From positions 23,932,001-23,996,000 of the forward strand of contig OZ024751.1 of NCBI GenBank assembly GCA_964016885.1: DNA of 64,000 bases, given 5' to 3'. The notes beneath the pieces are model-generated. The model searched no databases and had not been told where the DNA came from. It saw nothing but the letters and a program-made list of their open reading frames with translations. This DNA is from Eledone cirrhosa. Taxonomy: Eukaryota. Positions 23,218 to 47,460 of this stretch are shown piece by piece (within the stretch, counting starts at the first letter, position 1; each line of letters opens with the position of its first letter). The position numbers and the translations under genes are program-made.

Positions 23218-23410
23218 GGAAAATGTATGACCCCGACGGCAGAGATCAAGCCGTTTCGACGGCTATTTCTGGACAGAAATAGCCGTCGAAGCGGCTTGAG
23301 ATCTGCCGTCGGGGTCATATATTTTCCAATTACCCACTCTACTACTCTAAGTATTGAGTACTCTGGTGCGTTATGGTCCATCTGGTCCCTTACCACAACT
23401 CCTTCGTTAT
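23218..23410 (+). mobile_element. Family B pLTR fold-back in (TA)n
   Basis: Palindrome gaccccgacggc...gccgtttcgacggcta / tagccgtcgaagcggc...gccgtcggggtc plus tail acccactctactac...cttaccaca. Confidence 0.88.
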
Positions 23411-23609
23411 ATATATATATATATATATATATTATATATATATATATAAATATATATGTGTGTGTGTGTATATATGTGTGTGTGTGTGTCTCTATTTATA
23501 TATAAAGGACCGCGAATTAGAAGGTACGCTTTCATTTCGTTCAATGGGCTCATACGCACCGTTTTTTGACTATTTTATTTGGTCGAATTTACGGTGAGAT
23601 CTATATATA

Positions 23610-23797
23610 TAACAAACGAAGTGTGGTAAGAAACCGGGTGGACCATAATGCTCCAGAGTACTCGATACTTAGGGTAGTAGAGTGGGTAATAGGAAAAGAG
23701 TCAGGACCCCGACGGCTGAGCTCCGGCCGTTTCGACAGCTAGATCTAGCTGTCGAAACGGCCGGAGCTCAGCCGTCGCGGGTCTGACTGTGTTCCTA
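23610..23797 (-). mobile_element. Family B pLTR fold-back in (TA)n
   Basis: Same architecture in the opposite orientation, subfamily with cagctag stem II. Confidence 0.88.
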
Positions 23798-26560
23798 TAT
23801 ATATATATATATATATATATGAAGTATTTCCGTCGGAAAGGTACAGGAAAAAGAGTGCTCTATGTAGGCTACAGAGCTTATTAGTTATGTAATGAACAAC
23901 ATAAGATAATTATTTCATTTACCAGTGGTTTCTTGAAGGCAGATGTTATGTCTTTCTTCAGTCGTCAGAATGAATAAATAACGTGTGCGTGCGTGCGTGC
24001 GTGCGTGTGTATGTATGTGTATGTATGTGTGTTTTTGTCTCCTCAATGTTTGTGTCCGTATTCATGTTCAAATATTAGGTTCAGTATTATGTAATGTTAA
24101 TCTGAAATGGTAATTTGTATGTATGTTTTCTGTGGATGTGTGTGTTTATAGGATTATATAACTACACCACATATTTACTTATAGGCAATACATTACATTA
24201 AAGAAATGTATTATGGGCTTCAATATCTACGATCGTAAACAGGTGTCACTGAGCTGATAGTGAAATTGTCCAAAGGAAATATAGTATTACTGATATTCTG
24301 TAGGCTATATTTTCTTTCCTATTGTTTGAATCAATTCTCGTATGCTTTGTTAAGTTTTCTTCTGCAGTTGAACGCTTAAGTGTCCTCACAACATCTGTGA
24401 AGAGATAATCAAATGAGTTTTCAGATGAAGAGCTGGTTTCTGAAAATTCGTTCTCCCATCATCCCAATGAAGTCAAATATATGTAATGACATCTTGGATC
24501 AGGACGGGGGATTGACAAAGTTGTTACACGGTAGGGCAATATGCTTTGTGATAACTGTTCCTACTCAGTACGATCTGAGTTCAAATTATACCGAAGTTAG
24601 CTTTTGTCTTTCCTTCTTTAGCGGTTGATAAAATAAAGTACCAGTAACACAAGGGTCAATTTAATCGACTTTTCTCTTCCCATCAAATTGTTGGACTTGT
24701 GCAACAAGTAGAAACAATATTACCCTGGATTATACAATAAACATACAGTTATTTATCAGTGGATGCAAGCGTCACAGAGGGAGGAAGTAATCCCTTCACA
24801 ACACAATGAGGCGTTCCCAGGTTCGATCTCACTTCATAGGATTACTGTCATTATCAGAATCTCTGGTTGACCCAAGCCTCCTGACTGAAATTCGACAGAT
24901 AAAACTGTGTTGAAGTATGTCCATTGAATTAGCTTCGGACGTGCATTAAGAGTACACATCGCTGTGGAATACTCAATCACTTTACCCATGAATTTCATGA
25001 GTTTGACGTTCAATTAAATATTCAAATGAATGAATGAATGCTCAACGTCGAAACTGACGGAGGATCACGGTTACTCATAATTGAAAGCTGATTTATGTGT
25101 ATTTACCTGTCCTCATGTTGTGTTCATACTAGTTGTTAGCTTATTGTGTTAAAACATTCAGAGACTGACACCCAAACCATTGTGGCTATAAAATATGGGG
25201 ATTAGGTAGGTCTTTAACCCCCATCCCACATATCAGGGCATGAAGATATGGAATTGTTAGGGCTAGATACACGCAGTGGGTCTTTCAATGCAGCAATAGA
25301 CGTATCACATAGGTTTGCAACAATGAAATACAACTTCAATTGTTTCCCCAATCGAAATGTGATATAAATGCGAGTAATGTGGTAATATTTCTGTCTACAA
25401 TTTGAAATTCTGTCAGGTTATGGATGGATGGGCCGACGTCTTGTCGTTGTGTTGTATATTTTTATAAATGGAAGGAAGAAATGACGAACATATAGAATCA
25501 ACAGATATCCATCATATATAAATACATAGGTTTTATAAATAAAAATGAAACATATTGGAAAAGGTAATAATATATCATTTTAAAAAGTTTAGGAAAATTA
25601 AAGCGAACTAACACAAACGCATGACGCATTTGAACATACGCAATATGAGTTGACTAAAAAAATTAATGGATAGTTTAAATGCTAAGAGAGAGAAATCAAT
25701 TTCATAAGTGAAAAATTTGAAAAGAGTAATTGAAATGAAATGGGGAAAATATAGAAATACAAAAATAGTTAAGTTGAAGAGATGTTAGAAAATTGAATAA
25801 GAAATGTATAAATCATATTAAGATGTTTTTAATATATAAGATGAAAAACCTTCTGGAAATTTCGTGTTGAAATCAAAGATTGTAATAAAAAGATTTTGAT
25901 TTAGGAGAAAATTAGTTGGAATCCATATTAAAATATTAGTTATGTTGGGAATAAATTTATAATCCAATTTAAAACAATACTATGGATTTCAATTTTCCTC
26001 AAGGAAATTATATTTTGGCAAGAAAATTAATTTTTCTATTTTGATTTTATTCAATAAAACGAGAAGTTTTTAAATAAGATATTTGTTATTTATATATTCT
26101 CTTCTTGGAATATGACACAATATTCAATAAAACTGAATGTCACTATATATATTCGTGTGTTATATACCTGTGCGTCTTTCAAGATGCAAGGATTGAATAG
26201 TAATTCCTTATCGTATTGTAACAAAGGTTAACAAGAACTAAATACATTGCTGTTACGAAATTTATACAGTGTAGACATTTAAAGTACCGATATATATATT
26301 TTAAACTCAGAGCTTAAAAATATCTAAAGGAAAGGTACTGATCGTCAGTTCACACAACTGGATATCCGACAAAATGGCGGATTGTAAAGACTGTAAGCTT
26401 CTTCAGGTTACAGTATCGAAACGAGGCTTGGAGAGATTACAATTCGAAACCGATTGAGTACGCTGTCGGAAATTTTATATCATTAATATAGCCACGCTGT
26501 ATCAAATCATGAATTGAACACTACTTTGATTTGTGAACTTCATACATTTCGCACTCCAAA

Positions 26561-27550
26561 TCTCTCTATCTGTAACAGAGGATGTCTGTCTGTGTAAATC
26601 CCTAAAACTTGAGAAGTACCCGACCGATGTTTTCAAACTTTACACATGCGTTACTTGTATTTCTTGAAGTGCAATGGGCTAAAAATGTTTTAATTTTTTC
26701 TGCCCTAGGGCCCTCATTAGGCGAAAAACCGCATTTTGAAGGCATTTTAGTCTTTCTTTAGGTGTAACTTATAGATAATCCAGCCGATTTCCTCGAAATT
26801 TGCAGCATACATTAGTTAGTCCCCCGCATTGCTGTGGACAAAAACAAATTTCCGATTCCATCTAGGAATTTTACGAATTAGAATTGAACATTACATGCTA
26901 TTTTCATTTTCAATATAAACGCTAATTAAACATCGTAAGTAGCGTATAATATTTCGTTAAAAAATTGGGTTTATTTAACAGAGGACACAACACTTACTTA
27001 CTTTTAAGCAGGACCCTTTCAGGAGGATTGAGGAAATGAGAAGGACTTTAACATTGTCGGCGCCCTGCTTATACTTCGTGCTCTGACCACGCGCAAATCC
27101 GGACCCTGTGTACGTTGCCGTGTTATTGACGCCGTAAAACTCACATCTGTGCTACTTCTACTGAGACCCATTTTATTGCACCTACGCTGCAGTATGAACG
27201 CCTTGTGCAAGTACGCCGAAGAGCGGTTGTGCTAATTCCGCGGCGACACCTTTTGTCGCACCTTTGTTGCTGTGTAAACGCAGTCCAACCAGTGCCGCCC
27301 AGCGTTTGTACTAATTGACCTATGACCCCCTTCTGCTGCAGCTGCGTTGCCATGCTGATTTCGTCATCTCAATATCCCTACTTAAACGTACATTCCTACT
27401 TGGTTTTCACACAATTGACTACGTCGCTCCTCAATCATTCCTTGAAAATAAGGAAATTCAAAAAGTACACAGCTACATTCCCCAATCTTTGCATATGCGC
27501 GTTGCTATTTCACGTTTCCTATCCCGTGCAACACCGAGTCATGCTGCTAG
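26561..27550 (+). mobile_element. Non-autonomous Helitron
   Basis: 5' TC start followed by gtctgtctgt and aacttgagaag..ccgaccgatgttttcaaacttt. 3' GC-rich imperfect hairpin cccgtgcaacaccgag followed by gCTAG. Inserted between A and T with no TSD. Confidence 0.75.
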
Positions 27551-46084: not shown

Positions 46085-46343
46085 GTAAAATAAACCAAAG
46101 AACGCGCTACATACTCAAACAGTTTTTATTTGCTTACAATGTTTCATCCATACCGTTTGGTAGGATTCCTCAGAGCTTAATACCCTCTTTTGCATTCCGA
46201 TTGTTCGTGTGACTAATCTCTGTGGAGCTTATACTCAGCACTGCGTTCATTAAGCTCTGAGGATTCCTACCAAACGGTATGGATGAAACAATGTAAGCAA
46301 ATAAAAACTGTTTGAGTATGTAAGCGTTCATTGGTTTCTTTTA
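46085..46343. mobile_element. Family G fold-back; single arm also at 42933-43058
   Basis: catactcaaacagtttttatttgcttacaatgtttcatcc / ggatgaaacaatgtaagcaaataaaaactgtttgagtatg. Confidence 0.85.
46254..46298 (+). ncRNA. Minimal hammerhead (family G); mirror copy at 46132-46176 (-)
   Basis: gct CTGAGGA ttcctaccaaacggtatggat GAAA caatg TA agc. Confidence 0.8.
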
Positions 46344-47081
46344 CACACACACACACACACACACACACACACACACACACACACATATATATATATATAT
46401 ATATGTATAAGGGAACTTGGTCGTAGATTGACAGTAATGGTAGAGCGTCAGACAATATGCTTTGTGCTATATACTTACGTTCCTTTAATATTGTGTGCTT
46501 ATATCTTGCCTTTCATCCTTACGGAGGTTAGAAAATAATGTACCAGTAATGCAATCGTTCCAATTTAATCGACTTTCCTTTCCACCCGTATTGTCGACCT
46601 TGTGTCTAATTCGGAAAATATTATTCTATACGTTACAGAGAATTTGATTTCATCATTCTAATCAAGTCTGAAATAACCATTAATTACAAAAGGACAGCAC
46701 TTCGTAGGATTCACATGGATTTCATTTCAAGAATCTATTTTGAAATCAGTGCAAAGGCCAAGCATATATAACTTTCTTATAAACAAACACGAATGTAAGT
46801 TTAATGAATAAGAGTATAAGTTATATTCCCACATACTAGCGATAATATTGATTGAACACTGTCAACAGTAGCACGTGTATCAAGGTCTATCAAACATACC
46901 TGATTTATAGCAATGTATATCTACAAGTTATATATATATATATAGTATATATATATATATACTATACACAGAAAAATACACAAACAAGTTTGTTTTTTTT
47001 CCCCGAAAAAATCTTTTTTTTCCCGTTCGTTCCTGTTCTCGCAAGCTATCGTTTTTATTTCATCTTTTATTTCTCATTGTA

Positions 47082-47117
47082 TCGCCTGAAGAAGGACTGG
47101 TGTCAGAAACTTTACGA
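47082..47117 (+). ncRNA. Degenerate minimal hammerhead
   Basis: tcgc CTGAAGA aggactggtgtca GAAA ctt TA cga. Imperfect stems. Lies in an island between (TA)n tracts. Confidence 0.45.
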
Positions 47118-47264
47118 CTTTATCTACTATAACAAGCGTCACACTGATATATTTCTTCATTGAATGGTGTTGTTTGCATCGTTGTTTCCGTTTACTTCTT
47201 GGATATATATATATATATATATATATATATTTATATATATATATATTTATATATATATATATAT

Positions 47265-47460
47265 AGGAATGAGTAGGACCCCGACGGCTGAGCTCAAGCC
47301 GTTTCGACGGCTAATTCTGAACTCAGAATTAGCCGTCAAAACGGCTTGAGCTCAGCCGTCGGGGTCCTACTCGTTCCTATTACCCACTCTACTACCCTAA
47401 GTATTGAGTACTTTGGTGCGTTATGGTCCACTTGCTTCCTTACCACATTTCTTTCGTTAT
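47265..47460 (+). mobile_element. Family B pLTR fold-back in (TA)n
   Basis: Palindrome centred on ttctgaactcagaa. Short arms of the same family also occur at 1-30 and 49131-49188. Confidence 0.9.

What the first reader, a model, noticed from the sequence alone, without database searches (positions are those of the whole stretch)
23218..47460. Fold-back inversions that turn at the ribozyme's own helices (snap-back model)
Seen: five family B copies (23218, 23610, 27805, 38523, 47265) are palindromic about hammerhead stem II (gacggctaattctg/cagaattagccgtc and variants). Each has two copies of the GAAA side of the ribozyme and no CUGAnGA half. The copy at 36195-36290 shows the intact parent. The copies differ in sequence, so the same breakpoint appears to have been used independently. 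Established: PLE insertions often have an inverted 5' segment. Inference: the nascent cDNA 3' end folds back on the ribozyme hairpin and primes its own second strand, which then rejoins the target through TA microhomology (short arms end at ..ttcctAT(AT)n). The ribozyme fold would thus dictate insertion structure and produce stereotyped MITE-like hairpins by a retro mechanism.
Basis: partly seen in the sequence, partly recalled or inferred. Interest (0 to 1): 0.85.

Follow-up and report, generated by a model that had tools for sequence, protein, structure and literature searches.

The report
Twin-primed Penelope palindromes, not snap-back
These hairpins are short, repeatedly and separately formed insertions of a Penelope-like retrotransposon, each pairing one arm that has an 80-base tail with one that lacks it, and they likely form when both cut ends of the target DNA copy the element's RNA from two start sites, run off its capped 5' end and are joined head to head, which would explain how these elements make their inverted repeats.

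Summary
The palindromes are real, but the snap-back-at-helices model is not supported. Family B is the end of a Penelope-like element (PLE) with Hydra-clade motifs. It has two 3' ends 80 nt apart; all 135 simple head-to-head pairs join one tailed to one tail-less arm. Origins are separate: 65 different junctions among 79, several subfamilies shared with linear copies. Arms rarely end in ribozyme helices. They end near one base in loop II, the A of a TYAGT initiator-like motif, often with an extra G (20/37 versus 29/194 elsewhere). The tail-less arm is the longer one in 21 of 34 unbiased pairs, which copying from a tail-primed strand cannot give. In another family the same cut-off lies 30 nt below a TATA box, upstream of the whole ribozyme core. 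Best reading: both target ends prime cDNA at the two internal start sites, both cDNAs run off the capped transcript start, and the two are end-joined. No RNA data were available. Long copies pass the cut-off (12 of 16), which is unexplained.

The parts
23218..23274 (-). tail-less arm, subfamily B; runs from start site 1 (TTCC|TA) to loop II position 9
23274..23407 (+). tailed arm (23274-23327) plus 80-nt tail ending at start site 2 (TTCGT|TA); shares one C with the other arm
23612..23745 (-). tail (23612-23691) and tailed arm, subfamily C; GATC overlap at 23742-23745
23742..23795 (+). tail-less arm, subfamily C
27805..27826 (-). remnant of the tail-less arm, subfamily C, no TA flank
27826..27969 (+). 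tailed arm starting exactly at the inferred +1 A (AGTTC), G at 27825 before it; tail 27886-27969
36183..36298 (-). whole type I hammerhead fold in a tail-less linear copy, subfamily A; core CUGAGAA at 36285-36279 (C3/A8 mismatch); inferred +1 A at 36240
36336..36464 (.). hairpin closing the same copy about 220 nt from site 1; 3-nt loop, short arm without tail; possible true snap-back outside the ribozyme
38525..38661 (-). tail (38525-38604) and tailed arm, subfamily F; self-complementary GTAC overlap at 38658-38661
38658..38714 (+). tail-less arm, subfamily F
47266..47323 (-). tail-less arm, subfamily A, 58 nt, ending exactly at the inferred +1
47324..47457 (+). tailed arm (47324-47377; its first C can also be read as the cap copy of the other arm) and tail (47378-47457)
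49129..49188 (+). single tail-less arm, subfamily B, ending at loop II position 9 with no partner arm
23077..23189 (.). palindrome of a second ribozyme-bearing family (f1) used as control; in f1 the cut-off lies upstream of the CUGAUGA core

Best explanation
The hairpins are short insertions of a Penelope-like element with Hydra-clade motifs, each joining a tail-less arm head to head with a tailed arm inside a (TA)n tract, and they likely arise by twin priming, with both cut target ends priming reverse transcription on the element's RNA, both cDNAs likely running off its capped 5' end, and the two ends likely joined by end-joining. Shown: two fixed 3' ends 80 nt apart (site 1 at the foot of stem I, site 2 at the end of the tail, which continues into the 5' UTR and ORF in long copies); strict one-tailed/one-tail-less pairing; arm ends piling up at one base 58 nt from site 1 and 138 nt from site 2; many different junctions with overlaps, blunt joins and fillers. 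Inferred: that base is the transcription start (+1), inside loop II, which is why the arms lack the CUGA half; the extra G before it is the copied cap; an enzyme dimer primes one target end at each site; long copies arise when a run-off cDNA jumps to the repeated 58 nt at the RNA 3' end, like retroviral strong-stop transfer; the hairpins are the cases where no jump occurred, and are probably dead ends.
For: Parent: L064/L065 ORF with DKT, YRDDGL, CxCX5C, AYIG, CxxC-E-N-CxH. Pairing: 135 of 143 close head-to-head pairs are tailed/tail-less, none tailed/tailed or tail-less/tail-less; the other 8 involve an internal tail copy. Either arm can be longer: tail-less 21, tailed 10, tie 3 of 34 unbiased pairs; also at long range (tail-less arm -1082 with tailed arm -111 in L204; reverse in L037, L038). 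End position: 229 of 297 arms that reach stem II end at or below +1, 32 at 11-16, 36 pass through. Extra G: 20/37 at +1 versus 29/194 elsewhere, p 1e-6; six other families 16/25 versus 3/63, p 9e-9. f1: TATA-like box at -30 in all 5 parents examined; in 29 new loci fetched after +1 was fixed, 25 of 41 arms end at or below +1, 2 within 3 nt above it, 14 pass, and 4 of 4 ending at +1 have G. Seven cDNAs leave positions 7-14 and resume in the tail or ORF. Contigs of a public sample: summed depth 2-4 million from site 2 to +1, about 60,000 just beyond; strand-switch joints at 3918-3926 with +1 at 3923. In vitro precedent: PAc cleaves and extends both strands, starts RT at two internal sites bounding the tail, and is predicted to be a dimer (PMC11167929). 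Extra G marks cap copying in full-length L1 (PMC11702581).
Against: No RNA evidence for the start site. Of 16 copies that continue through the ORF, 12 extend upstream of +1 and none ends at it, so long copies must jump efficiently or use longer or circular RNAs. In family B 16 of 37 arms ending at +1 have C, not G, before them, and several G cases can be read as templated by the partner arm. About 1 arm in 9 ends 1-6 nt above +1. Family B has only a weak TATA-like sequence at -29 to -31, none in subfamily C. +1 for f13, f10 and f3 was chosen after seeing the ends; 3 of the f3 G cases may be short duplications; 2 of the 4 held-out f1 G cases abut GA repeats. The depth drop may partly reflect subfamily divergence upstream, and that sample may be the assembled one. 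A weak helix can be drawn across positions 6-13 of loop II.
Confidence: 0.7

Rival explanations
1. Twin priming as above, but the common end is a reverse transcriptase stall at a structure or bound protein in loop II, not the RNA 5' end.
For: Long copies pass the site (12 of 16); a helix can form across loop II positions 6-13; ends spread over positions 4-15; no RNA run to test it.
Against: The enzyme passes three stronger helices with few stops; the extra G is tied to one base in several families; f1 stops 30 nt below a TATA box at a different place relative to the ribozyme.
Confidence: 0.15
2. One reading: one tail-primed cDNA snaps back on a ribozyme helix, copies itself and rejoins the target at TA.
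For: Arms of a locus usually match the same subfamily (61 of 67 assignable pairs); a few junctions use the AGCCGT/ACGGCT complementarity (L210, L301); the hairpin at 36336-36464 looks like a snap-back; self-priming was proposed for PLE palindromes in PMC3846280.
Against: Ends avoid helices; tail-less arm longer in 21 of 34; fillers and zero-loop GTAC or GATC overlaps; cap-like base on tail-less arms and on both arms of L259 in f1; rare variants shared by both arms 7, in one arm only 139; the short-arm end is also the end of linear copies.
Confidence: 0.05
3. Insertions were longer perfect palindromes that were later trimmed by asymmetric deletions at the centre, which produced the varied junctions and either-arm spacers.
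For: Long palindromes are unstable (recalled); some copies have clear internal deletions (L185, L193, L276).
Against: Single arms joined to target DNA or to ORF sequence end at the same base with the same extra G (L176, L212, L101, L079); deletion gives no reason for a fixed upper limit at +1.
Confidence: 0.07
4. The 196-bp hairpin is a MITE or SINE amplified from one or a few masters.
For: Constant outer ends; 19 of 24 pairs from the whole-element query share the GACT|C junction.
Against: That query selects the junction; junction-blind sets give 65 of 79 distinct, 11 of 11 in the random sample; arms are interleaved with linear copies in the tree, at least 11 label changes forced; the outer ends are not inverted repeats of each other; the same GACT|C junction occurs in subfamilies A and B.
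Confidence: 0.03

Closest known systems
Hydra clade of C-terminal EN+ Penelope-like elements (Craig et al. 2021, PMC8557442)
   Same: DKT, RWK-like motif, CxCX5C linker, no CCHH, CxxC and CxH around E and N, hammerhead in the pLTR, (TA)n targets, inverted 5'-truncated copy, tail at one end only.
   Different: Unit is 3,579 bp (described as generally under 3 kb), tail 80 nt (30-40 described), motif RWR; the paper ascribes the tail and inverted structure to endonuclease properties and leaves the mechanism open.
PAc Poseidon element in vitro (Frangieh et al. 2024, PMC11167929)
   Same: Two internal RT start sites bounding the tail near the pLTR-ORF junction; both target strands cut and extended; AT-rich target; ribozyme cleavage not needed (here few arms end at the cleavage site).
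   Different: That work saw no start-site difference between strands and, in the parts read, does not address inverted repeats, the RNA 5' end or template jumps; here the pairing is strictly one end per site and starts lie at TA.
L1 twin priming and full-length cap G (passages in PMC11702581)
   Same: Second target end primes a second cDNA; two cDNAs joined by NHEJ or MMEJ; extra G from the cap.
   Different: In L1 the second primer anneals at variable internal sites and the two cDNAs cover different parts of the RNA; here both start at fixed sites near the 5' end and copy the same 58 nt, giving a palindrome.
Retroviral minus-strand strong-stop transfer (recalled)
   Same: Priming near the RNA 5' end, run-off at the cap, transfer through a terminal repeat (58 nt here) is predicted.
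   Different: Primer is target DNA, not tRNA; two primers; transfer to the 3' end is inferred here, only misdirected jumps are seen.
Non-LTR retrozymes (bioRxiv 10.64898/2026.07.22.740005)
   Same: Non-coding, PLE pLTR-derived, type I hammerhead sequence.
   Different: Retrozymes are head-to-tail tandems with whole ribozymes; these are head-to-head pairs with half a ribozyme.

Membership tests
Hydra-clade PLE (parent element) | single RT ORF with C-terminal GIY-YIG endonuclease | tested here: met
   open frames in L064/L065 run RT (YRDDGL) then VIY..AYIG; Pfam gave no hit at E<=0.1, so the call rests on motifs
Hydra-clade PLE (parent element) | DKT and RWK motifs | tested here: met
   SDKTG and RWR (variant) in L064 (definition)
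Hydra-clade PLE (parent element) | CxCX5C linker, no CCHH, CxxC and CxH around conserved E and N | tested here: met
   CNCPDGSLC; CNLCSEE..LLNKK..CKH
Hydra-clade PLE (parent element) | insertion into (TA)n | tested here: met
Hydra-clade PLE (parent element) | length generally under 3 kb | tested here: not met
   unit 3,579 bp in L064
Hydra-clade PLE (parent element) | RT falls in the Hydra clade in a tree | not tested
   no reference Hydra sequences were fetched
Type I hammerhead ribozyme (linear copies) | stems I-III around the core, G10.1-C11.1, UH cleavage site | tested here: met
   92.8% of cells paired against 23-51% when slid; covariation not above shuffles, 116/500; no Rfam hit
Type I hammerhead ribozyme (linear copies) | 3-8 base pair in the core | tested here: inconclusive
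   U3-A8 in 11 of 13 aligned rows, a variant described in PMC4209133; C3/A8 mismatch in 42 of 64 linear arms, mostly subfamily A, including the window copy
Type I hammerhead ribozyme (linear copies) | self-cleavage | not testable with these tools
   needs an assay
MITE | terminal inverted repeats at the element's outer ends | tested here: not met
   one end carries the 80-nt tail
MITE | clonal descent from a master with a fixed internal sequence | tested here: not met
   65 of 79 junctions distinct; interleaved with linear copies
MITE | target-site duplication | tested here: inconclusive
   cannot be read inside (TA)n
Non-LTR retrozyme | head-to-tail tandem units each with a whole ribozyme | tested here: not met
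   head-to-head, half ribozyme
Twin priming (works like L1's) | two separately RNA-templated cDNAs joined at an inversion junction | tested here: met
   either arm longer, fillers, cap-like base on both arm types; sequence inference, not biochemistry
Pol II start site at the junction base | capped RNA 5' ends mapped there | not testable with these tools
   no RNA holder listed; indirect signs only

The most novel reading that the evidence does not exclude
Penelope-like elements in general integrate by a symmetric cycle: an enzyme dimer holds one RNA, primes one target end at each of two start sites close to the capped 5' end, and each cDNA either transfers to the RNA 3' end like retroviral strong-stop DNA or is end-joined to its twin. 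This single cycle would account for the pseudo-LTR, the inverted copy and the one-sided tail, would let promoters be mapped from genome sequence alone, and would make these elements a main source of perfect hairpins (tens of thousands from this family) in this genome.
Probability: 0.45. Interest if true: 0.82.

Novelty: new variant of a known kind. Interest (0 to 1): 0.66.

Why it matters
How PLEs, the closest mobile relatives of telomerase, form their tandem and inverted structures is stated as open in PMC8557442 (section 15). The copies here give a concrete model that joins the in vitro results on PAc (two start sites, both strands extended) to genomic anatomy, and it can be tested in that existing assay by moving or uncapping the RNA 5' end. 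I found no such model in five searches, which do not cover most subscription papers. Extrapolating 21 two-armed copies in 1.12 Mb gives roughly 56,000 hairpins of this family in 3.0 Gb, and at least eight other families show similar palindromes. If the host is an octopus (guess from genome size and repeats, untested), they could be a source of the unusually abundant perfect double-stranded RNA noted for octopus editing (PMC5625713).

Tried and rejected
Tool repeat finder was swamped by (TA)n. Rfam: no hammerhead among the 150 listed of 232 window matches or on 36170-36320. Unconstrained folding of the linear copy did not give the hammerhead fold, z -0.71. Pfam found nothing on two ORF pieces. 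No RNA holder listed; this says nothing on expression. The first query (whole palindrome) made the family look clonal; junction-blind queries and random regions overturned that. One search had offsets wrong by one for four families and was redone. Apparent same-type pairs were mislabelled tails, corrected; 12 such pairs were missing from the junction count. Ribozyme-cleaved RNA as main template: only 3 of 116 arms at risk end at the cleavage site. Naiad assignment rejected because the endonuclease is C-terminal. A coding partner was seen for f13 and f10 but not established for f1. Earlier scan findings: none. PMC10018344 passage was irrelevant. The tree has few columns and an unsettled bootstrap; one pair in it (L061_9170) is two separate insertions.
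Full report
Observation. Four of the five named copies are near-perfect palindromes of 104-112 nt; 27805 is partial. All lack the 5' half of the ribozyme. Each sits in (TA)n and is asymmetric: one arm stops at TTCC|TA (site 1), the other continues 80 nt to TTCGT|TA (site 2, the tail). The genome G000 is 3.0 Gb. In 112 ten-kilobase regions taken at round coordinates of the large contigs (1.12 Mb) there are 44 family B clusters, 21 with both orientations, which extrapolates to about 118,000 and 56,000.

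Parent. The 36183 copy leads to a longer element. L064 is nearly whole: inverted pLTR with tail, direct pLTR with the ribozyme, tail running into the 5' UTR, ORF, 3' UTR and a 3' pLTR ending at site 1. The unit is 3,579 bp. Its frames carry RWR, DKT, YRDDGL, CxCX5C, AYIG and CxxC-E-N-CxH, the features given for the Hydra clade in PMC8557442 (section 11 read); no tree was made. The ribozyme has type I architecture. The core is U3-A8 in subfamilies B, C, D and F, a variant described in PMC4209133 (passages), and a C3/A8 mismatch in most subfamily A copies, including the window's.

Not one master. The whole-palindrome query returned 30 nearly identical copies, but it selects the junction. With queries that leave the junction out or only approach it, random regions and flanks, 79 junctions gave 65 types, and 11 of 11 in the random sample. 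The commonest arm haplotypes are shared by linear copies and both arm types. Both arms are nearest to the same linear subfamily in 61 of 67 assignable pairs, with 13 more lacking a close linear copy, and the linear label needs at least 11 changes on well-supported branches. Each subfamily favours junctions at its own self-complementary words, GTAC in F and GATC in the window's C copy.

Not at helices. For 129 arms from random regions, flanks and the window, the rate of ending is 0.002-0.011 per nt through stems I, III and II, 0.042 at loop II positions 1-8, 0.143 at 9-11, 0.078 at 12-16 and 0.003 beyond (mismatch-tolerant, a few linear copies missed). With exact matching, 229 of 297 arms that reach stem II end at or below position 10, 32 at 11-16, and 36 pass the ribozyme. 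The limit is the same base for tailed and tail-less arms although they are 138 and 58 nt long, and for subfamilies whose loops differ. That base is the A of T(T/C)AGT, which resembles the initiator consensus (recalled).

Not one cDNA. Of 143 close head-to-head pairs, 135 are tailed/tail-less, none has two tails or none, and 8 involve an internal tail copy. Snap-back from a tail-primed strand requires the tailed arm to be at least as long; the tail-less arm is longer in 21 of 34 unbiased pairs, the tailed in 10, and the same holds at kilobase range (L204 versus L037). A tail-less first strand holds no template for the tail. Some pairs have foreign or templated fillers, for example L259 with both arms at position 10 and 26 nt between. 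Single arms also stop there, and seven cDNAs leave positions 7-14 and resume in the tail or ORF.

The limit behaves as a capped transcript start. A G not in the parent precedes 20 of 37 arms ending at position 10, against 29 of 194 elsewhere; it occurs on both arm types. Full-length L1 insertions carry such a G from the cap (PMC11702581, passages). An inverted-repeat census of all loci then in hand found 347 palindromes, 141 of family B, the rest in many families, most with a TA run directly on one side only. In f1 five parents have a TATA-like box 30 nt above AGATTCC or its equivalent, and the arms include the whole CUGAUGA core. Across six other families 25 of 136 arms end at +1, 16 with G, against 3 of 63 elsewhere; +1 was chosen after seeing the ends for f13, f10 and f3. 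As a held-out test, 29 new f1 loci gave 41 arms: 25 at or below +1, 2 within 3 nt above, 14 passing, and G in 4 of 4 at +1, two of them next to GA repeats. Contigs of one public sample laid on L064 show summed depth of 2-4 million between site 2 and +1 and about 60,000 beyond, with strand-switch joints at 3918-3926 around +1 at 3923; this sample may be the assembled one and contig depth is not a copy number. A start site inside the pLTR is reported for Penelope and Chlamys (passages).

Mechanism. PAc cleaves and extends both target strands, starts at two internal sites bounding the tail, is predicted to be a dimer and does not need ribozyme cleavage (PMC11167929, parts 1-2 of 4 and passages). 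I infer that each target end primes at one site, both cDNAs run off the cap, and end-joining with small trims, overlaps or fillers fuses them. The common GACT|C junction would then use the cap-copied C as a one-base overlap. Long copies would arise when a cDNA transfers to the 58-nt repeat at the RNA 3' end. Whether one or two RNAs are used is open: L191 has arms of two subfamilies.

Against. No RNA data. Twelve of 16 ORF-bearing copies extend above +1 and none ends there. Sixteen of 37 family B arms at +1 are preceded by C. Family B's TATA-like sequence is weak. The hairpin at 36336-36464 may be a true snap-back, outside the ribozyme.

Literature. PMC3846280 (passages) explains PLE palindromes by self-priming on an antisense template; PMC8557442 (passages and sections 11, 15) leaves the mechanism open; the retrozyme preprint (part 1 of 5) concerns tandems; PMC5625713 (passages) notes abundant perfect dsRNA in octopus. 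Searches (listings only) showed no paper proposing twin run-off for PLEs. Supplements of PMC11167929 (Figs S1, S2) and PMC8557442 (Fig S7, file S2) were not read and may bear on start sites and on Hydra membership; Arkhipova 2006 and 2017 were not read.

Verdict. Interest 0.66.

Noticed in passing
window 20093-20178, 23077-23189, 43148-43525, 44402-44671, 46087-46342, 53492-53627, 37952-38244, 50414-50489: Palindromes of several other families, many with hammerhead-like cores and the same one-sided tail; centres lie at family-specific bases.
   Followed up: partly
window 36336-36464: Hairpin with a 3-nt loop whose short arm stops 153 nt before site 1 and has no tail; candidate true snap-back event.
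   Followed up: partly
L306, L312, L323, L314, L322 (unit positions about 179-203): Several template jumps land in one AC-rich stretch just after the probable ORF start, 100 nt beyond site 2; possibly a short RNA's 3' end or a protein-bound site. L314 has the same jump in both arms.
   Followed up: partly
window 36279-36285 and most subfamily A linear copies: Ribozyme core has a C3/A8 mismatch in an abundant subfamily, so cleavage may be dispensable for its spread.
   Followed up: partly
window 47723-47800; L139 4833-5146, L039 1818-2033: tRNA-headed repeat (Rfam tRNA 39.8 bits) whose family also forms head-to-head palindromes; a possible SINE partner of a PLE.
   Followed up: no
stem III loop, e.g. 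window 47290-47297; L182 2973: Loop III is a perfect 8-nt palindrome in most subfamilies and served as the overlap in one very short hairpin.
   Followed up: no
L191 about 1430-1545: The two arms of one hairpin match different subfamilies (D and A), a hint that two RNAs can be used.
   Followed up: partly
window 30452-30734: Fragment of a related RT gene, 66-75% identical in protein to the family B parent.
   Followed up: no
window 48001-48765: 19-bp tandem array of about 40 copies.
   Followed up: no
window 1212-1321 and 18 other places; 10562-11136, 34556-34804, 51297-51646: An abundant dispersed repeat family that also occurs as inverted pairs.
   Followed up: no
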